Shown one piece after another: positions 121 through 4,538 of a stretch of DNA of 5,028 nt. Origin of the DNA: a virus (Duplodnaviria; Heunggongvirae; Uroviricota; Caudoviricetes); IMG/VR virus record IMGVR_UViG_2802429242_000002, positions 1 through 5,028 of that record; one strand, given 5' to 3'. The notes beneath the pieces are model-generated. The model saw only the letters and a program-made list of their open reading frames with translations, made no database searches and was not told the DNA's origin. The stretch's first letter is position 1; each line of letters starts with the position of its first letter. The translations under genes were made by a program, and so were the position numbers.

Positions 121-1269
121 TCATTTGCGCCCCCTTACCTCTGAAGGGTTCAGCGACAAATTTATGAGGCAGGCCAGCGCCGAAGCATCATTAATATAGT
201 CATATAAGCTAACAGCCAGCGGAGATTCGGCTTTTGCCAACATAGGATAAAGCTGCTGCAGCCAGACCTGATGAATTGATGAAATGTAGGAACAGAGAAC
301 GCTGGCGTTATGTGCAACGTCGCTCGGTACAGCGGGCTTTGAAAGCTGTTTCTCCATCTGGTTAAAGGCATTGATGTATGCCTCTTTGAACTGGGCAGCA
401 CGTTTACCCGTGAAACCCATAGCAAGAAACGCAAAGCCGTCGCGGGTTATTTGATAGCAAGGTAGTTTGCGGCCTGTGCAATCGGTGTAATCACTCACCG
501 AAAAATTGCGGGCAGTGAATGATGCGGAACATTCAAGCGTGCGGATCTTTTTCAGTACATCGTCATGACGTTTGGAGAAGAAGTTGGCAACAGCCAGGGA
601 TGAAGTAACAGCCTGACCATCAACGATGGCAATTTCAGGTTGAGTGAGGGTTGGGATCGTAGCCATGATGACAGCCTCCGATAACAGTGAATTACCTTCA
701 CCACCGGAAACGCCAATTTCGCTGGTGGTGAACTGAACGGGGTTGGCGTAACCGGCGTTATCGGAAACCGGCGCACCTTTCGGTGCCCCCGTCCAGCCCA
801 CCATAATTTGGGTGTGCGCAGACGCAGACGATAAAAAAAACGCTGGCGCGTCATATATCGCCGATAACATTTCCAGGACGCCAATCCCGGCACCCGCTTT
901 ATAAGGTGCCTGAACAGTGTAACGTCCCGGAATGGCAGAATCAATGTGCTGGTGGTCCTTCACACTCAACAAAATCACGCCTGAATTTCCACAAAGGACT
1001 AAAGCACTCATGCGGGTAGTCTTTGCGAAGATAGATAACGCGCTGTGTTTCTGGCTCCCAACGAATAACATGAACATAAAGTCCTCTTCCGTCACGAAAC
1101 CAGCGGTTAAGTTCCTGCACAACTCGCCCCCCACAGTCAGGTAAAGTTCTCTGTGGTTACTTACAGGCAGGTGATTTGGTAATCTGCATTCATGCCGTAA
1201 CAACAGGTGTTCAGCCACGCGGACCACCAGCTGTTGCGACCAACGGTTATTTGCCGTTAAACTGTTCAT
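121..1269 (-). CDS. Rha-family phage regulatory protein (antirepressor-like), with a ~200-aa N-terminal region of unknown function
   Basis: 382-codon ORF. Residues ~205-305 (TLTQPEIAIVDGQAVTSSLAVANFFSKRHDDVLKKIRTLE ... YQITRDGFAFLAMGFTGKRAAQFKEAYINAFNQME) match the Rha-family signature as I recall it (KRHDnVLr ... TRDGF..LvMGFTG..A.qFK.aYI..FN.ME). Start ATG 1267-1269 overlaps the upstream gene's stop as ATGA (stop 1266-1268), with GGAG 10 nt upstream. The N-terminal half uses E. coli-like codons (CCG, GGT, ACC, GAA, AAC) and its other frames look like shadow ORFs. Alternative internal start ATG at 664-666 (M202) has a strong GGAGG SD 8 nt upstream and would give a 181-aa Rha-only protein. 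Confidence 0.6.
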   Translation of the reverse strand: MNSLTANNRWSQQLVVRVAEHLLLRHECRLPNHLPVSNHRELYLTVGGELCRNLTAGFVTEEDFMFMLFVGSQKHSALSIFAKTTRMSALVLCGNSGVILLSVKDHQHIDSAIPGRYTVQAPYKAGAGIGVLEMLSAIYDAPAFFLSSASAHTQIMVGWTGAPKGAPVSDNAGYANPVQFTTSEIGVSGGEGNSLLSEAVIMATIPTLTQPEIAIVDGQAVTSSLAVANFFSKRHDDVLKKIRTLECSASFTARNFSVSDYTDCTGRKLPCYQITRDGFAFLAMGFTGKRAAQFKEAYINAFNQMEKQLSKPAVPSDVAHNASVLCSYISSIHQVWLQQLYPMLAKAESPLAVSLYDYINDASALACLINLSLNPSEVRGRK

Positions 1270-1850
1270 GCGTTAGTTTCTCCACAACCAGAAGCAATCG
1301 ACGCCACGACGCCCGGAGCTGCACACTCGCGGGCGTTACTCTTTTCCGGCGCACAAAAAACACGAAATAACAGTGTTAAATGCTCCTGCCACTTCGCCAT
1401 TACTTGGTAGCTGTTCTCTTCGATTTGCTCACGCTCAGCCTGATCAATAACTCCATCAGCAGTTGCCTTGCGTAAGTACTGGGAATGCTTGCCAATCCAT
1501 TCTATTGACTCCATCAGCCGCTGATTAATGTCACCATTGTCAATGTCATCAATGACCACCAGCGGCACAAACACCCCATTACTACGACGGGCTATTGCAT
1601 CCGTTACATGCCTGGTACCACTGGCATCCTGTAAAACCATGGCCCACTCGAGTGGAAAAATTTGATCCCCACCGCTACGCAGTCTGTTATGCAATTGATC
1701 TTTTGCTGGGGTGATATCATCAGATTTATACAAACCAAGAATTTCTGCTGCTTCCTCATAGCCATGAGGTAAATCAGCAATCGTTCTTCGTATTGCTGCC
1801 ACCAGCCATGCTGGTTGTTTATCAACTTTCCATTCAGGTTCTTTACCCAC
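1266..1850 (-). CDS. CII-like / YdaT-like early regulatory protein
   Basis: Follows the Cro-like gene on the same strand, the position of lambda cII and Rac ydaT. I favour a GTG start at 1848-1850, with GAGGAA SD 6 nt upstream and a 28-nt gap after the Cro-like stop. The track ORF extends to ATG 1961, but that start and the in-frame ATGs at 1928/1925 lack an SD and would overlap the Cro-like gene by 47-83 nt. The DQLHNRLRSGG stretch loosely resembles what I recall of YdaT-family proteins; family assignment is from memory and position only. Confidence 0.55.
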   Translation of the reverse strand: MGKEPEWKVDKQPAWLVAAIRRTIADLPHGYEEAAEILGLYKSDDITPAKDQLHNRLRSGGDQIFPLEWAMVLQDASGTRHVTDAIARRSNGVFVPLVVIDDIDNGDINQRLMESIEWIGKHSQYLRKATADGVIDQAEREQIEENSYQVMAKWQEHLTLLFRVFCAPEKSNARECAAPGVVASIASGCGETNA

Positions 1851-1878
1851 GGTTAATTCCTCATTTCTGTGGTTACGT

Positions 1879-2142
1879 TTACGCAGCTGAACCGCTAACT
1901 TTTGAATAGCACTCAGGTAATCCATCATTTGGATTGGGGTAAATATCAGGACGCAATTCATGAGGGGTCACGGACCAGTTTCCCAACTCACAAAGTTGTA
2001 AAACCCGTTCTGACGGGACTTGATTGTTAATTACCCAATTAGCGACGGATTGAGTGGACTTAAAACCAAAGCGACGGGCTACTTCAGATAAAGATTTTCC
2101 CGCAGCTTTTACTGCTTTCTCTGTGTAGTTTTGAGATGACAT
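1879..2142 (-). CDS. Cro/YdaS-like helix-turn-helix regulator
   Basis: 87 aa. Sequence SLSEVARRFGFKSTQSVANWVINNQVPSERVLQLCELGNWSVTPHELRPDIY fits the YdaS/Cro-like pattern (HTH followed by a conserved HELRPD motif). Divergent from the repressor gene. GAGGAG SD 6 nt upstream of ATG 2140-2142. Confidence 0.85.
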   Translation of the reverse strand: MSSQNYTEKAVKAAGKSLSEVARRFGFKSTQSVANWVINNQVPSERVLQLCELGNWSVTPHELRPDIYPNPNDGLPECYSKVSGSAA

Positions 2143-2150
2143 ACCTTTCT

Positions 2151-2167
2151 CCTCTGAAATTCAGAGG
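2151..2167. promoter_or_regulatory. Perfect 17-bp palindrome CCTCTGAAATTCAGAGG overlapping the Cro-like gene's SD and predicted transcript start
   Basis: Read directly: 8-bp perfect inverted arms around a single central base. Lies between the predicted PR-like -10 (2169-2174) and the Cro-like start codon. Its sequence differs from the CTAC-N5-GTAG operator family. Confidence 0.4.
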
Positions 2168-2168
2168 G

Positions 2169-2197
2169 ATAATGCTACTTAAAATAGCAAAATGCAA
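2169..2197 (-). promoter_or_regulatory. PR-like promoter for the Cro-like operon (-35 TTGCAT, 17-bp spacer containing operator, -10 CATTAT)
   Basis: Minus-strand sequence TTGCATTTTGCTATTTTAAGTAGCATTAT. It matches the plus-strand element at 4129-4157 (TTGATTTTTGCTACTTTTGGTAGCAGAAT) at 22 of 29 positions with identical layout, supporting paired early promoters. Hexamers are moderate matches to sigma70 consensus. Confidence 0.45.
2173..2189. promoter_or_regulatory. Operator O_R1-like 17-mer TGCTACTTAAAATAGCA
   Basis: Inverted arms TGCTA/TAGCA. Shares the CTAC ... (G/A)TAG half-site pattern with sites at 2196-2212, 2241-2257, 4114-4130 and 4137-4153. Sits in the spacer of the PR-like promoter. 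Confidence 0.5.
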
Positions 2198-2212
2198 CTA
2201 CTTAAAATAGAA
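2196..2212. promoter_or_regulatory. Operator O_R2-like 17-mer AACTACTTAAAATAGAA
   Basis: Exact direct repeat of the 13-nt core CTACTTAAAATAG from O_R1, centre-to-centre spacing 23 bp, comparable to lambda operator spacing. Overlaps the -35 of the PR-like promoter. Confidence 0.45.
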
Positions 2213-2240
2213 ATGACTAGCGTATGTGATGTGAGTAATC

Positions 2241-2257
2241 TTCTACCTATGGTAGAA
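2241..2257. promoter_or_regulatory. Operator O_R3-like 17-mer TTCTACCTATGGTAGAA overlapping the favoured repressor start codon
   Basis: 7-bp perfect inverted arms (TTCTACC/GGTAGAA) with CTAC and GTAG at the same positions as in the other operators. Contains ATG 2249-2251. Confidence 0.45.
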
Positions 2258-2953
2258 GAACAGAAGTATCCAGATTTCGCCAAGAGACTAAACGAGCTAA
2301 TGACAAACAAGGGAATTTCTGTCACCCAACTCAAAAGTCTTGTGGGCGTTACATATGAAATGGCGCGGCGATACACAATCGGCGCTGCGAAGCCTCGTGC
2401 CTCTGTCATGAATAAACTTGCATTGGCTCTGGGGGTATCAGCTTCATATTTAGAATATGGTGTTGGCGAGAGAGAAGGATGTAAGGAAATGACAAGCATC
2501 CCCAATCCAACAAAACCCGATGTATACAGGATAGAAGTTTTGGATCTTAGCGTTAGCGCAGGACCTGGGACCTATATGCTTTCAGACTATGTTGATGTGC
2601 TCTACGCCATTGAGTTCACAACAGAACATGCCCGTTCTCTTTTCGGCAACCGTTCTCAGGATGATATTAAGGTTATGACTGTAAATGGCGATAGTATGTC
2701 CCCTACTCTCGTTTCCGGAGACCGACTGTTTGTCGACATTTCTGTTCGTCACTTCCAGACTGATGGAGTTTACTCTTTCGTTTACGGTAAGACTTTTCAT
2801 GTCAAACGTCTTCAAATGCAAGGTGACAAGCTAGCCGTTCTTTCGGATAACCCCGCCTATGAGAAATGGTATATCGATGAAAAATCGCAGGATCAGCTTT
2901 ATGTAATGGGCAAGGCGTTGATTCACGAATCTATAAAATACAACCGATTGTAA
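2249..2953 (+). CDS. cI/LexA-type prophage repressor (N-terminal XRE-family HTH, C-terminal S24 self-cleaving peptidase domain)
   Basis: HTH region FAKRLNELMTNKGISVTQLKSLVGVTYEMARRYTIGAAKPRASVMNKLALALGVSASYLEYG. Candidate Ala-Gly cleavage site in LSVSAGPG. Serine nucleophile in the GDSMSPT motif and lysine in FHVKRL, as in LexA/lambda cI. Start is uncertain: the track ORF begins at ATG 2192 (253 aa), but 2192 and the ATG at 2213 lie inside the PR-like -35/operator region. ATG 2249 (234 aa) leaves ~9 residues before helix 1 and may be leaderless. None of the three has an SD. Confidence 0.85.
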   Translation: MVEEQKYPDFAKRLNELMTNKGISVTQLKSLVGVTYEMARRYTIGAAKPRASVMNKLALALGVSASYLEYGVGEREGCKEMTSIPNPTKPDVYRIEVLDLSVSAGPGTYMLSDYVDVLYAIEFTTEHARSLFGNRSQDDIKVMTVNGDSMSPTLVSGDRLFVDISVRHFQTDGVYSFVYGKTFHVKRLQMQGDKLAVLSDNPAYEKWYIDEKSQDQLYVMGKALIHESIKYNRL

Positions 2954-2997
2954 AACTCAATCCTTTCAGGATTAAAAGATCTAAAAGGATAATAATA

Positions 2998-3360
2998 ATG
3001 AAATCTGAACTATTTCATAGCGAAGCAAATTCAGAAATTATCACCGCAGATGAGTTTATTGATTTCATAAACTCTTTCAAAAAGCCTTTAATTTGCCAAA
3101 TTTGCGGAAATCAATCATGGAGTGTAGTCGGTACTCTAGAACTTGAAGTTGAAGACAATCAGCCAAAACATCACGTAATCGAAGTTCTCAGCTATGCCCA
3201 ATACAAACCTGAAACTGATAGCGCTATAAATTATCCTGGTGGTATGCCGCTGTTTCGAATCACCTGTGATCACTGTGCACATGTACTTCTTTTTTCTTAT
3301 AAAAAAGCTAGATCATTGATCCAAAAAAGAAAAAATGAAAAAGAAGAGGATGGGAAATGA
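2998..3360 (+). CDS. Hypothetical small zinc-ribbon protein (two CxxC pairs), cargo gene downstream of repressor
   Basis: 120 aa with Cys33/Cys36 (CQIC) and Cys90/Cys93 (CDHC). AAAGGA SD 8 nt upstream of ATG 2998. Lysine-rich acidic tail. Markedly AT-rich (about one third G+C by hand count of 3001-3060, against about half in 601-660). I recognise no family. Confidence 0.7.
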   Translation: MKSELFHSEANSEIITADEFIDFINSFKKPLICQICGNQSWSVVGTLELEVEDNQPKHHVIEVLSYAQYKPETDSAINYPGGMPLFRITCDHCAHVLLFSYKKARSLIQKRKNEKEEDGK

Positions 3361-3989
3361 CGCGACCTTATCTCAGAGCAGTACCAAACTGTGGATCTGG
3401 TATTGATAAGTGTGACCTTTACCCCAATGTTAAGAACAGGCTGCGCGTCGGTATAGAAGAAATGTATACTGATTTTATCGAATCCGCAGATGAAACTTAC
3501 AAAACTGATGGGGGAAATAAAATGTCATCAGTTAGTCGAGAAGAAATTCAAGCACTTTTAGCTGCCAATAAAGCAGAAATGGAGTCCATTGCATCCTCTA
3601 TTAGAGTTGAAATGGCTTTATCTCGCGAGAACACAAACGTTCAGCTAGCATCTCTAAATTCAGCCATCAATTCTATCTCTTCGAAAATCGAAGGCAAAAT
3701 GGACAGTGTTGACGGGGATGTGAAGGCCATCAATGGTAGATTCGAAGGTATACAAGGCCAAATTACTGGAATAAATACAGCCATTAGTGGTATTCAATCT
3801 GGAATTTCTACCAGACTTGCTATTTTTGGAGTTATCATTGCGGTCATAGTTGCATTACCTAGCATAATTTCTGCTTTTAAAGATACTTCGCCAGTAGTTC
3901 AACCAGTTACACAACAACCAAGTGTTAAACATCTCAACCAAGAACCAATTACTCCACAAGTATTACCTCCGCAGGGAAAAGCAAACTAA
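3357..3989 (+). CDS. Hypothetical coiled-coil protein with single C-terminal transmembrane helix and proline-rich tail
   Basis: ATG 3357 overlaps the upstream stop as ATGA, with GAGGA 6 nt upstream. Alternative start ATG 3522 (M56) has GGGGGA 6 nt upstream. Residues ~60-150 are heptad-like and Ser/Ile/Gly-rich; hydrophobic segment LAIFGVIIAVIVALPSIISAF (~154-174); tail rich in P, Q and V. Architecture resembles small phage membrane proteins such as XhlA-like or exclusion proteins, by resemblance only. Confidence 0.65.
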   Translation: MTRPYLRAVPNCGSGIDKCDLYPNVKNRLRVGIEEMYTDFIESADETYKTDGGNKMSSVSREEIQALLAANKAEMESIASSIRVEMALSRENTNVQLASLNSAINSISSKIEGKMDSVDGDVKAINGRFEGIQGQITGINTAISGIQSGISTRLAIFGVIIAVIVALPSIISAFKDTSPVVQPVTQQPSVKHLNQEPITPQVLPPQGKAN

Positions 3990-4012
3990 ACCGGCTTTAT
4001 GCCGGTTTTTTT
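3989..4012 (+). terminator. Rho-independent terminator after the cargo cassette
   Basis: AACCGGC-TTTAT-GCCGGTT hairpin immediately after the TAA stop (3987-3989), followed by a run of seven T (4006-4012). Confidence 0.8.
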
Positions 4013-4113
4013 CTATACAAACGCCCCCTCTTTGTCTTGAATCACATCACAACACATTTAAAAAACATTTTAAATTCAAAGCATTAAACGCATCAACGCA
4101 TATCAAACAAATT

Positions 4114-4130
4114 ATCTACTTTTAGTTGTT
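4114..4130. promoter_or_regulatory. Operator O_L2-like 17-mer ATCTACTTTTAGTTGTT (weaker half-site)
   Basis: CTAC half-site at the conserved position, second half GTTG instead of GTAG. Centre lies 23 bp from O_L1, the same spacing as O_R1 to O_R2. Overlaps the -35 of the PL-like promoter. Confidence 0.35.
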
Positions 4131-4157
4131 GATTTTTGCTACTTTTGGTAGCAGAAT
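4129..4157 (+). promoter_or_regulatory. PL-like early promoter (-35 TTGATT, 17-bp spacer containing operator, -10 CAGAAT)
   Basis: Matches the PR-like element at 2169-2197 at 22 of 29 positions in the same promoter orientation. Located downstream of the repressor cassette terminator and upstream of plus-strand small ORFs, as for lambda PL/OL. Confidence 0.45.
4137..4153. promoter_or_regulatory. Operator O_L1-like 17-mer TGCTACTTTTGGTAGCA
   Basis: 6-bp perfect inverted arms TGCTAC/GTAGCA. Same family as the O_R sites. Lies in the spacer and -10 of the PL-like promoter. Confidence 0.5.
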
Positions 4158-4361
4158 TGTTTTAACAACAACGAACAGGCAGGACGCCCACGAAGTAGCC
4201 GCCTGGGGCATATGAAGTCCAGGATGATTCGTTGAGTCATGTTGTGCCACTAGGCACTCATGTTAAAGCAGGTGTATGAAATGAAAGTCCAGATTTTAAA
4301 CAATAACTGTGAAGTCGTTTAGGCGTAAAACATGACCGCGCGTAGACCAAGGGAGGAAAAA

Positions 4362-4538
4362 GTGGGAATAGTTAGAAATCAAGCAGATATATTGAAAATC
4401 AGCTCTGAATTGCTTGGAGTTTTGAAAAGTGAGCTCACCGCACATGGCATCGAGCCCACTGACGAAAATTTAAGTTGGGTTTTGTCGATTATTCAACAAT
4501 CACTCAAGCCCAGCCTCAGCAAACTTTTTATCGAGTAG
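4362..4538 (+). CDS. Hypothetical small protein, first ORF of the putative PL-like transcript
   Basis: Strong SD AAGGGAGG with a 5-nt spacer to GTG 4362 (58 codons). The track ORF starts at ATG 4332 (68 aa) with only a weak AGG upstream. I see no arginine-rich N-type motif and recognise no family. Confidence 0.4.
   Translation: MGIVRNQADILKISSELLGVLKSELTAHGIEPTDENLSWVLSIIQQSLKPSLSKLFIE

What the first reader, a model, noticed from the sequence alone, without database searches (positions are those of the whole stretch)
2169..4157. Duplicated promoter-operator modules about 2 kb apart built on a 17-bp CTAC-N5-GTAG palindrome
Five related 17-mers occur in two clusters (2173-2189, 2196-2212, 2241-2257 and 4114-4130, 4137-4153). 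Each cluster has two sites spaced 23 bp centre to centre. The promoter-like stretch 2169-2197 (minus strand) and 4129-4157 (plus strand) match at 22 of 29 positions with the operator embedded between the -35 and -10. This is a lambda-like OR/OL layout and would allow repressor-mediated looping across the repressor and cargo genes. It also defines the immunity specificity of this prophage.
Basis: seen in the sequence. Interest (0 to 1): 0.55.

Follow-up and report, generated by a model that had tools for sequence, protein, structure and literature searches.

The report
Prophage repressor operators flanking immunity region
The five 17-bp palindromes are almost certainly the binding sites through which this E. 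coli prophage's CI-type repressor shuts off its two early promoters, an ordinary lambda/HK022-style switch with a so far uncharacterised DNA specificity.

Summary
CTAC-N5-GTAG with at most 1 mismatch occurs exactly five times, all at the stated coordinates (chance expectation 0.88; 0/200 shuffles reach 5). A matrix built only from other loci scores these five at 17-21.5 bits and the next best site at 4.4.

The window is the immunity region of an E. coli prophage. An S24/HTH repressor gene (2249-2953) faces a cro-like gene. Two cargo genes and a terminator follow, then a second promoter.

Every relative with the recognition helix (S/T)YEM(A/I/V)RRYT keeps the layout: OR1 in the pR spacer, OR2 at about +23 bp, OR3 at about +45 bp, and OL sites downstream. 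This holds in Citrobacter, Klebsiella, Gibbsiella, Providencia, Acinetobacter, Aggregatibacter and Moraxella. Relatives with a swapped N-terminal domain lack the motif.

The repressor is 42% identical to HK022 CI, whose oR3 also sits on the cI start codon and which loops OL-OR in vivo.

Verdict: a new member of a known kind. Binding, transcription starts and looping are inferred, not shown.

Side finding: a conserved, covarying 62-nt RNA starts just after pL. It occurs in more than 120 viral contigs of many immunity types and has no Rfam match.

The parts
2173..2189 (.). OR1: operator lying in the 17-bp spacer of pR
   Evidence: One mismatch to CTAC-N5-GTAG and 20.3 bits on a matrix built from other loci. 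Present at the same place in all 14 related loci, as a perfect palindrome in most.
2196..2212 (.). OR2: operator 23 bp from OR1. It overlaps the -35 of pR by 2 bp and abuts the putative -35 of pRM.
   Evidence: 19.7 bits. Its right half plus the adjoining bases, ATAGAAATGAC, is invariant in 10 enterobacterial loci. The ATAG half is also kept in Acinetobacter, Aggregatibacter and Moraxella phages.
2241..2257 (.). OR3: perfect palindrome centred on the repressor start codon (ATG 2249-2251), 45 bp from OR2
   Evidence: 21.5 bits, the best site. Conserved in all relatives. It is the positional equivalent of the annotated HK022/HK75 oR3, TTGAACTTATGGTTCAA.
4114..4130 (.). OL2: promoter-distal left operator. 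Its last two bases are the first two of the pL -35.
   Evidence: 17.3 bits. Conserved 23 bp from OL1 in 11 loci.
4137..4153 (.). OL1: perfect palindrome in the spacer of pL
   Evidence: 20.8 bits. Conserved in relatives.
2169..2197 (-). Putative pR: -35 TTGCAT (2197-2192), 17-bp spacer, -10 CATTAT (2174-2169). Predicted start near G2162. It drives cro.
   Evidence: Sequence. The TTG of the -35 and the A2/T6 of the -10 are conserved in relatives. It matches pL at 22/29. Only 7/12 to consensus and not listed.
4129..4157 (+). Putative pL: -35 TTGATT (4129-4134), 17-bp spacer, -10 CAGAAT (4152-4157). Predicted start near 4164.
   Evidence: Sequence. Geometry conserved in relatives. Promoters of other immunity types sit at the same distance upstream of the shared leader RNA. 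Only 8/12 to consensus.
2213..2241 (+). Putative maintenance promoter pRM: -35 ATGACT (2213-2218) abutting OR2, 17-bp spacer, -10 TAATCT (2236-2241). Predicted start at or next to A2249, giving a leaderless repressor mRNA.
   Evidence: Both hexamers are conserved while the spacer varies in sequence but not in length. The same geometry is seen in PSTCR8lys (ATGACA-17-TAAACT), AbTJ (TTGGTG-17-TAAAAT) and Aaphi23 (TTGAAT-17-TATCTT). No Shine-Dalgarno precedes the ATG. This is an inference.
2249..2953 (+). CI-type repressor gene, 234 aa: N-terminal HTH with recognition helix TYEMARRY, C-terminal S24 autopeptidase
   Evidence: Pfam Peptidase_S24 1.8e-16 and HTH_3 1.8e-05. phrog_4 transcriptional repressor 6.8e-50. 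42% identical to HK75/HK022 CI over the full length. RefSeq WP_001343338.1 uses the same start.
1879..2142 (-). cro-like gene (YdaS-family HTH, 87 aa), transcribed divergently from the repressor gene
   Evidence: Pfam YdaS_toxin 4.6e-11. phrog_35. Conserved at this place in all relatives.
2998..3989 (+). Two cargo genes (2998-3360 and 3357-3989) in the rexAB-like slot between the repressor gene and OL
   Evidence: phrog_4293 and phrog_5820, both of unknown function. This slot holds different genes in each relative.
3988..4008 (+). Intrinsic terminator ending the repressor-cargo transcription unit, upstream of OL
   Evidence: Eight pairs (5 G-C) followed by a T run.
4171..4232 (+). Conserved structured leader RNA at the 5' end of the pL transcript (adjacent feature; function unknown)
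   Evidence: Two helices with covariation. Covariance model score 96.9 bits. Exact 23-nt core in more than 120 viral contigs. No Rfam match.
4332..4538 (+). First gene of the pL operon (68 aa)
   Evidence: Full-length match to phrog_15476, E 7.4e-50.

Best explanation
The five palindromes are the operators of the CI-type repressor encoded at 2249-2953, in an HK022/lambda-style immunity region of an E. coli prophage. In a lysogen, repressor dimers would bind the pairs OR1+OR2 and OL1+OL2, whose members are 23 bp apart. The stronger site of each pair lies in the promoter spacer and the weaker one touches the -35, so RNA polymerase would be excluded from pR (cro, the cII-like gene, replication genes) and from pL (leader RNA, then the left operon). 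Repressor at OR2 abuts the -35 of a weak rightward promoter (ATGACT-17-TAATCT). This promoter would start the repressor mRNA at or next to the A of its own ATG, giving a leaderless message as at lambda pRM, and OR2-bound repressor may activate it. OR3 is centred on that ATG and start point, so it would shut the promoter off at high repressor levels. RecA-stimulated self-cleavage (Ala104-Gly105, Ser149, Lys186) would release all the sites. The pairs at OR and OL, 1964 bp apart, may also contact each other by looping, as HK022 CI does. What is shown: the motif, its statistics, its conservation, its co-variation with the recognition helix, and the gene context. What is inferred: binding, cooperativity, transcription start sites, activation, autoregulation and looping.
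For: Statistics: 5 hits against 0.88 expected, 0/200 shuffles. Cross-validated matrix: 17-21.5 bits against 4.4 for the next site, and no other site in 20.5 kb of the prophage. Context: an S24/HTH repressor facing a YdaS-type cro, then a cII-like gene, cargo genes, a terminator and the left operon. Conservation: 10 enterobacterial loci with 45-85% identical repressors keep all five sites at 22-23, 45 and 23 bp. The OR-OL distance varies from 872 to 2731 bp with cargo content. Phages of Providencia, Acinetobacter, Aggregatibacter and Moraxella with the helix (S/T)YEM(A/I)RRYT keep the same motif and the three-site OR. Specificity: proteins that share the C-terminal domain but have other N-terminal domains come from loci without the motif (L006-L008). 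HK022-type proteins have TTGAAC-N5-GTTCAA at the same OR3 position. The operators follow the cI helix, not the Cro helix, which reads QSVANW in enterics and PWAVSKW in the distant phages. Promoter elements (the TTG of both -35s, A2/T6 of the -10s, the cro Shine-Dalgarno, ATGAC and TAATCT) are conserved between variable spacers. Homology: 42% identity to HK022/HK75 CI. In that phage oR2 lies in the pR spacer and oR3 on the cI ATG, and its CI loops OL-OR in vivo (PMC8053113).
Against: No experimental binding, footprint or start-site data exist for this repressor in the searched literature. pR and pL match the consensus only at 7/12 and 8/12 and were not picked by the promoter scan. That scan instead listed a plus-strand TTAAAA-18-TAAAAT made of the AT-rich operator centres. 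pRM matches at 7/12. OL has two sites, so the lambda-type OL3-OR3 contact cannot exist. OR2-OR3 spacing is 45 bp, not about 23 bp, so lambda's alternate pairwise cooperativity is not transferable. 933W repressor does not bind adjacent sites cooperatively (PMC5977221), so cooperativity cannot be assumed for every CI. A conserved palindrome at the predicted pR start (2151-2167) is not explained by the model.
Confidence: 0.87

Rival explanations
1. The sites are real operators, but OR and OL act independently. Only short-range binding occurs, with no OL-OR loop and possibly no pairwise cooperativity, as reported for 933W repressor.
For: 933W repressor does not bind adjacent sites cooperatively, and 933W lacks OL3 (PMC5977221). 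This OL also has only two sites. The OR-OL distance is not conserved: 872-2731 bp among the enterobacterial loci, 835 bp in PSTCR8lys.
Against: The C-terminal domain is homologous to that of HK022 CI, which binds adjacent sites cooperatively and loops OL-OR in vivo. All three lambdoid repressors tested in the loopometer looped (PMC8053113). The strict 22-23 bp spacing within each pair in the enterobacterial and Providencia loci suggests a pairwise contact.
Confidence: 0.3
2. The palindromes are bound mainly or only by the Cro-like YdaS-family protein (1879-2142), not by the S24 repressor.
For: In lambda-type switches Cro uses the same operators, so Cro binding here is expected as well. The Cro-like gene is always adjacent.
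Against: The motif is unchanged in phages whose Cro recognition helix differs (PWAVSKW against QSVANW) while the cI helix YEMxRRY is constant. Loci with the same cI C-terminal domain but another N-terminal domain lose the motif. OL lies far from cro.
Confidence: 0.04
3. The repeats are chance or compositional features of AT-rich promoter DNA, or the OL1 palindrome is an RNA hairpin or terminator rather than a protein site.
For: The terminator scan lists 4134-4156 as a weak stem (3 G-C pairs) followed by a T-rich tail. The operator centres are AT-rich.
Against: 0/200 shuffles reach 5 sites. There is a gap of about 13 bits to the next site. Half-site bases C-6 and A-4 are invariant in 138 half-sites from 8 genera while flanks diverge. 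A strong terminator already lies at 3988-4008.
Confidence: 0.01

Closest known systems
Coliphage HK022 (and HK75) CI repressor with OR1-3, OL1-3 and OFR
   Same: The repressor is homologous over its full length (42% identity, E 4e-67). Operators are 17 bp with a 5-bp centre. One operator lies in the pR spacer. OR3 is a palindrome centred on the cI ATG, so residues 2-3 of the protein are encoded by the operator half-site: MVE here, MVQ in HK022. HK022 CI binds adjacent sites cooperatively and loops OL-OR (PMC8053113).
   Different: The half-site is CTAC(T/C)T here and TGAACT in HK022. The recognition helix is TYEMARRY against PKAISKWF. HK022 has an operator at the pR start point (oR1), whereas here that slot holds an unrelated palindrome and the pair is shifted one slot upstream. 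HK022 has three OL sites and an OFR site beyond cro; here there are two OL sites and no extra site in 20.5 kb. HK022's OL-OR distance is about 0.7 kb against 1.96 kb here. No put RNA homologue was found.
Phage lambda CI with OR1-3 and OL1-3 (pR, pL, pRM)
   Same: An S24/HTH repressor is transcribed divergently from cro. Tandem 17-bp operators lie about 23 bp apart and overlap pR and pL. A weak maintenance promoter has its -35 next to OR2 and makes a leaderless cI mRNA (established for lambda, inferred here). Accessory genes sit between cI and OL. OL and OR are about 2 kb apart.
   Different: There is no detectable sequence relationship in the DNA-binding domain or the operators. OR3 is 45 bp from OR2 and lies on the start codon rather than over the pRM core. 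OL has only two sites, so no OL3-OR3 contact is possible. No N gene or nut site is evident downstream of pL.
Stx phage 933W repressor and operators
   Same: Three operators at OR and no OL3 (PMC5977221).
   Different: The repressor NTD and the operator sequence are unrelated. 933W repressor is reported to be non-cooperative, which is not known for this protein.
cI regions of Aaphi23 (Aggregatibacter), AbTJ (Acinetobacter), Mcat4 (Moraxella) and PSTCR8lys (Providencia)
   Same: The same recognition helix, (S/T)YEM(A/I)RRYT, with 48-54% NTD identity. The same CTAC-N5-GTAG operators, a three-site OR at 20-24 and 44-55 bp, and a promoter between OR2 and OR3.
   Different: In AbTJ, Aaphi23 and Mcat4, OR3 lies upstream of the start codon. 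In Aaphi23 and Mcat4 a GGAG Shine-Dalgarno lies between OR3 and the start codon. Their OL sites are 45-55 bp apart, or only one was found. Their Cro recognition helices differ. I found no paper describing operators for any of them.

Membership tests
Lambdoid CI/Cro immunity switch (OR/OL type) | Repressor with an N-terminal HTH and a C-terminal LexA-like S24 self-cleaving domain (Ala-Gly site, Ser/Lys dyad) | tested here: met
   Pfam S24 1.8e-16 and HTH_3 1.8e-05. AG at 104-105, GDSM Ser149 and VKRL Lys186 align with HK75 CI.
Lambdoid CI/Cro immunity switch (OR/OL type) | A cro-like gene transcribed divergently from the repressor gene across a short intergenic region | tested here: met
   ORF 1879-2142 on the minus strand is a YdaS-type HTH. 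The intergenic region spans 2143-2248.
Lambdoid CI/Cro immunity switch (OR/OL type) | Several related, partly symmetric ~17-bp operators overlapping the early promoters on both sides of the repressor gene | tested here: met
   Sites lie in the spacers of pR and pL and touch both -35 hexamers.
Lambdoid CI/Cro immunity switch (OR/OL type) | Operator sequence co-varies with the repressor's DNA-binding domain (immunity specificity) | tested here: met
   The motif is present in 14 loci with the YEMxRRY helix. It is absent in L006-L008, which have other NTDs. HK022-type NTDs go with GAAC-type sites.
Lambdoid CI/Cro immunity switch (OR/OL type) | The repressor physically binds the operators and represses pR and pL | not testable with these tools
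   Needs EMSA, footprinting or reporter assays. No publication was found.
Lambda-type long-range switch | Three operators at OL, including an OL3 that pairs with OR3 | tested here: not met
   Only two sites at OL, and nothing above 5.9 bits elsewhere in 20.5 kb.
Lambda-type long-range switch | Repressor octamer bridging OL and OR (DNA loop) | not testable with these tools
   Only by analogy with the HK022 CI homologue, which loops in vivo.
HK022-type immunity region | Repressor homologous to HK022 CI over its full length | tested here: met
   42% identity over 234 aa, E 4e-67.
HK022-type immunity region | OR3 palindrome centred on the cI start codon | tested here: met
   TTCTACCTATGGTAGAA here against TTGAACTTATGGTTCAA, annotated as oR3 in HK75.
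HK022-type immunity region | HK022 immunity specificity (TGAAC half-sites) | tested here: not met
   The half-site is CTAC, and the recognition helix differs.
HK022-type immunity region | An extra operator (OFR) in or beyond cro | tested here: not met
   The candidate at 2079-2091 has 2 mismatches, and its synonymous positions vary freely among relatives. The matrix finds no site there.
HK022-type immunity region | put antiterminator RNAs downstream of pL and pR | tested here: not met
   HK75 putL/putR and HK639 putL share no significant similarity with the window. The leader-RNA model does not hit HK75 or HK639. A functional analogy is not excluded.

The most novel reading that the evidence does not exclude
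The structured RNA that begins about 7 nt after the predicted pL start (4171-4232) may be an undescribed class of cis-acting leader RNA. It would act on RNA polymerase or a host factor without a phage-specific protein, for example as a put-like anti-pausing or antitermination element, in the early-left operons of a large group of N-less temperate phages. It is exchanged as a module independently of the immunity region. Separately, the CTACTT-A-AAGTAG operator and the YEMxRRY helix would be an unusually old recognition pair, kept unchanged from Enterobacteriaceae to Pasteurellaceae and Moraxellaceae.
Probability: 0.25. Interest if true: 0.65.

Novelty: new member of a known kind. Interest (0 to 1): 0.3.

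Why it matters
The result gives a concrete and testable operator map (five sites, three promoters) for an immunity type carried by about 4% of complete E. coli genomes (207 of 5426). No sequenced phage in the collection searched and no paper found describes this type. Because the repressor is an HK022 CI homologue with a different half-site (CTAC against GAAC) in the same architecture, the pair is a natural system for asking how lambdoid repressors change specificity while keeping cooperativity and looping. The operator sequence can also be used to assign prophages to immunity groups from sequence alone, across several genera. In itself the switch is ordinary.

Tried and rejected
1. A fourth operator inside cro (2079-2091, CTACTTCAGATAA; one mismatch in some relatives). 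Rejected: third-codon positions across the site vary as elsewhere in the gene, several relatives break the half-site, and the matrix does not score it.

2. Other promoter registers for pR, namely -10 TAGCAT, -10 TATTTT inside OR1, or an HK022-like register with OR1 at the start point. All give poor -35 hexamers or 14-15 bp spacers (reading).

3. The plus-strand TTAAAA-18-TAAAAT listed. It is built from the AT-rich centres of OR1 and OR2 and is probably an artefact, though this is not excluded.

4. The longer open reading frames starting at ATG 2192 or 2213, which some gene callers use (253 and 246 aa). The 12 extra codons are variable and not conserved as protein. They have a fixed length that fits a promoter spacer, and RefSeq uses 2249.

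5. Homology of the pL leader to HK022/HK639 put RNA: none. A second, putR-like copy in the pR operon: none in 189 kb of loci.

6. Identity of the leader RNA with the K-12 Rac sRNA KilS: the model does not hit Rac.

7. Intrinsic terminators in the pL operon that an antiterminator would need: none convincing on the plus strand.

8. PDB sequence search with the repressor: no hit at E 0.01.

9. PADLOC on the cargo genes: only a marginal PbeC hit, E 0.0014.

10. The genome-contig scan with the single protein gave only 3 loci, all with other N-terminal domains. They served as negative controls.

11. Literature searches for the operator and RNA core sequences and for Aaphi23 operators found nothing relevant. 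King et al. 2011 on put-like RNAs is not held.


Full report
**What the window is.** The 5028 bases are 99.8% identical over 1850-4350 to a prophage in E. coli strain 181.1 that lies next to zur/dinF/lexA. Parts of the window also match SfV, mEp460, cdtI, ST64B and several Stx phages.

On the minus strand, reading leftward, the window holds:
- a cro-like gene at 1879-2142 (Pfam YdaS_toxin, phrog_35);
- a cII/YmfL-like gene at 1266-1850/1961 (Phage_CP76, phrog_101);
- a long ORF at 121-1269 with a Rha/antirepressor domain.

On the plus strand it holds:
- a 234-aa repressor gene at 2249-2953, with HTH_3 and Peptidase_S24 domains;
- two genes of unknown function at 2998-3360 and 3357-3989;
- a strong terminator at 3988-4008;
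- after a 100-bp AT-rich gap, the second operator cluster;
- a 68-aa gene at 4332-4538 that matches phrog_15476 over its full length.

This is the gene order of a lambdoid immunity region.

**Check of the observation.** The five 17-mers are at the stated coordinates.
- CTAC-N5-GTAG with at most one mismatch occurs exactly five times, against 0.88 expected. None of 200 shuffles reaches five.
- At two mismatches the pattern is not enriched, with 18 hits against 14 expected. The signal therefore lies in the near-perfect sites.
- Spacings are 23 bp within each pair and 45 bp from the second to the third right-hand site.
- The 22/29 promoter identity is correct, and it extends to 34/46 over the whole two-site module. 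The repeat finder reports the same modules as a 39-nt inverted repeat.
- A weight matrix built only from sites in other loci scores the five sites at 17.3-21.5 bits and the next window position at 4.4. The same five are the only strong sites in 20.5 kb of the near-identical prophage.

**Comparative evidence.** The repressor has many relatives. Sorting them by N-terminal sequence shows domain shuffling. Proteins P0002-P0042 (66-85% identical) share the helix GVTYEM(A/V)RRYT. Others keep the C-terminal domain but carry quite different HTH regions.

I fetched DNA for eight of the first group, from Citrobacter, Klebsiella, Gibbsiella and metagenomes. I also used phage Phi06_2987 S, whose repressor is 45% identical and carries the helix SYEMARRYT.
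- Every one has a site in the pR spacer, a second site 22-23 bp away, a third 45 bp further on and centred on the repressor ATG, and a pair 23 bp apart downstream of the cargo genes.
- The OR-OL distance ranges from 872 to 2731 bp.
- Three loci whose repressors have other N-terminal domains (L006-L008) have no such sites.
- In the alignment of the right-hand region, the conserved blocks are the half-sites, the TTG of the -35, the -10, the cro Shine-Dalgarno, ATAGAAATGAC and TAATCT. The DNA between them is free to vary.
- E. coli variants at 93-96% identity keep the layout. Only 2 of 11 variable intergenic positions fall in the 17-mers, and one of them makes OR1 a perfect palindrome.

The same recognition helix occurs in the cI proteins of Providencia phage PSTCR8lys, Acinetobacter phage AbTJ, Aggregatibacter phage Aaphi23 and Moraxella phage Mcat4, with 48-54% identity in the domain. 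All four have CTAC-N5-GTAG sites in a three-site right operator with spacings of 20-24 and 44-55 bp, plus one or two sites to the left.

Their Cro proteins carry a different recognition helix (PWAVSKW rather than QSVANW). The operator therefore follows the cI domain, not Cro.

Pooling 69 sites gives the consensus CTACTT-A-AAGTAG, with C-6 and A-4 invariant. The sites were found partly by matching the motif, so the invariance of the core is somewhat circular. The OR2 sites with two mismatches were taken by position, however, and they still keep C and A.

**Relation to known systems.** The repressor is 42% identical to HK022/HK75 CI over its whole length, mostly in the C-terminal part. In the HK75 record, oR2 lies in the pR spacer and oR3 (TTGAACTTATGGTTCAA) is centred on the cI ATG. 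That is the same unusual arrangement as here.

One consequence is that the right half of OR3 encodes residues 2-3 of the repressor. ATG GTA GAA gives MVE here, and ATG GTT CAA gives MVQ in HK022.

There are four differences from HK022:
- the half-site is CTAC rather than GAAC;
- the pair is shifted one slot upstream, whereas HK022 has oR1 at the pR start;
- OL has two sites rather than three;
- there is no OFR-like site.

A two-site OL has a precedent in 933W (PMC5977221).

HK022 CI is reported to bind adjacent sites cooperatively and was shown to loop HK022 OL-OR in vivo. Lambda CI and phiKO2 CB also looped in the same assay (PMC8053113).

**Mechanism proposed.** The shown and inferred steps are separated in the Best explanation section.

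pR is TTGCAT-17-CATTAT on the minus strand, and pL is TTGATT-17-CAGAAT on the plus strand. Each has the better operator in its spacer and the weaker one touching its -35. Both are weak by consensus (7/12 and 8/12) and were not listed by the scan. This is the main weakness of the promoter assignment.

Between OR2 and OR3 lies a conserved ATGACT-17-TAATCT. Its -35 abuts OR2, and its predicted start is at or next to the A of the repressor ATG, which has no Shine-Dalgarno. The same geometry, with better hexamers, is seen in AbTJ (TTGGTG-17-TAAAAT) and Aaphi23 (TTGAAT-17-TATCTT). I read this as a pRM that makes a leaderless mRNA, with OR3 as its autoregulatory site.

**Things around the finding.**
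1. Just after pL lies a 62-nt element (4171-4232) conserved in SfV, SfII, ST64B, mEp460, mEp237, SPN3UB, SEN34, Yersinia, Klebsiella and Pantoea phages, in DNA that is mostly annotated as non-coding.
   - It has a 25-nt invariant core and two helices with clear covariation. In 18 sequences, 96.7% of cells are paired and 39 cells carry double changes, with 0/500 shuffles as high. In 62 distinct sequences there are 172 double changes. Slid controls give 17-43% pairing.
   - More than 120 viral contigs carry the exact core, with one strong covariance-model match in nearly all of the 80 loci searched, plus two weak hits. It sits 10-15 nt downstream of a TTGAC-17-TAnnnT promoter that holds palindromes of at least ten different kinds.
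   - The element therefore marks the boundary where immunity modules are exchanged, and it independently supports the position and direction of pL.
   - It has no Rfam match, although Rfam has no put family either. It does not resemble HK022 or HK639 put.
   - Its function is unknown. The left operons of mEp237 and SPN3UB have no annotated N gene, which allows an antitermination role. However, I found no convincing terminators downstream in this prophage.
2. Rfam finds a C4 antisense RNA (721-808, 82.8 bits) and an isrK-like RNA (833-909, 61.7 bits) on the minus strand, inside the 'Ash' half of the long ORF and upstream of the Rha/antirepressor domain. This points to a P1-type c4/ant layer of control.
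3. A perfect 17-bp palindrome at 2151-2167 spans the predicted pR start and the cro Shine-Dalgarno. Its arms covary among relatives. I cannot explain it.

**Verdict.** The interpretation as OR/OL operators of the adjacent repressor is well supported by comparative evidence. The system is an HK022-like member of the lambdoid switches with a distinct and widespread specificity that has not, as far as I could find, been characterised. It is not surprising to a specialist. The neighbouring leader RNA is the more unusual object.

Noticed in passing
window 4171-4232 (+), with flanks 4164-4240: A conserved structured RNA lies at the 5' end of the pL transcript. It has a 25-nt invariant core (GGCAGGACGCCCACGAAGUAGCC plus neighbours) and two covarying helices. 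It is present downstream of repressor-controlled promoters of many different immunity types in more than 120 viral contigs. It has no Rfam match and no similarity to HK022/HK639 put. Function unknown.
   Followed up: partly
window 721-808 (-) and 833-909 (-): Rfam C4 antisense RNA (82.8 bits, gathering score 45) and isrK (61.7 bits, gathering score 50) lie inside the Pfam 'Ash' part of the long ORF 121-1269, just upstream of its Rha/antirepressor domain. This looks like a P1 immI-like c4/ant module downstream of cro and the cII-like gene. The 'Ash' reading frame may be partly a translation of RNA genes.
   Followed up: no
window 2151-2167: A perfect 17-bp palindrome, CCTCTGAAATTCAGAGG, lies between the pR -10 and the cro ATG. 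One arm is the cro Shine-Dalgarno. The arms are kept, and position 6 covaries (G:C, A:T, T:A) in 9 of 10 relatives. However, the predicted pR start falls inside the 5' arm, so a pR transcript could not form the full hairpin. Unexplained.
   Followed up: partly
window 2998-3989 and the same slot in L009-L020, L157-L159: The slot between the repressor gene and OL is hypervariable. Here it holds phrog_4293 (a Cys-rich 120-aa protein) and phrog_5820 (210 aa, coiled coil plus a membrane segment). In relatives it holds HigB, HicAB, ParA-like and other genes. It resembles the rexAB or moron position and may hold exclusion or defence genes.
   Followed up: partly
window 2249-2257: The right half-site of OR3 doubles as codons 2-3 of the repressor: GTA GAA gives Val-Glu here, and GTT CAA gives Val-Gln in HK022. 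Operator specificity and the protein's N-terminus are therefore coupled. Gene callers often extend the ORF upstream through the promoter spacer to give 246- or 253-aa versions.
   Followed up: partly
L157 (E. coli O157:H7 146N4) 1427-3003: In this relative an IS3-family element has split the cro-like gene while the repressor and all five operators are intact. The prophage is probably locked in lysogeny. L157 and L158 also carry a different leader after pL instead of the conserved RNA.
   Followed up: no
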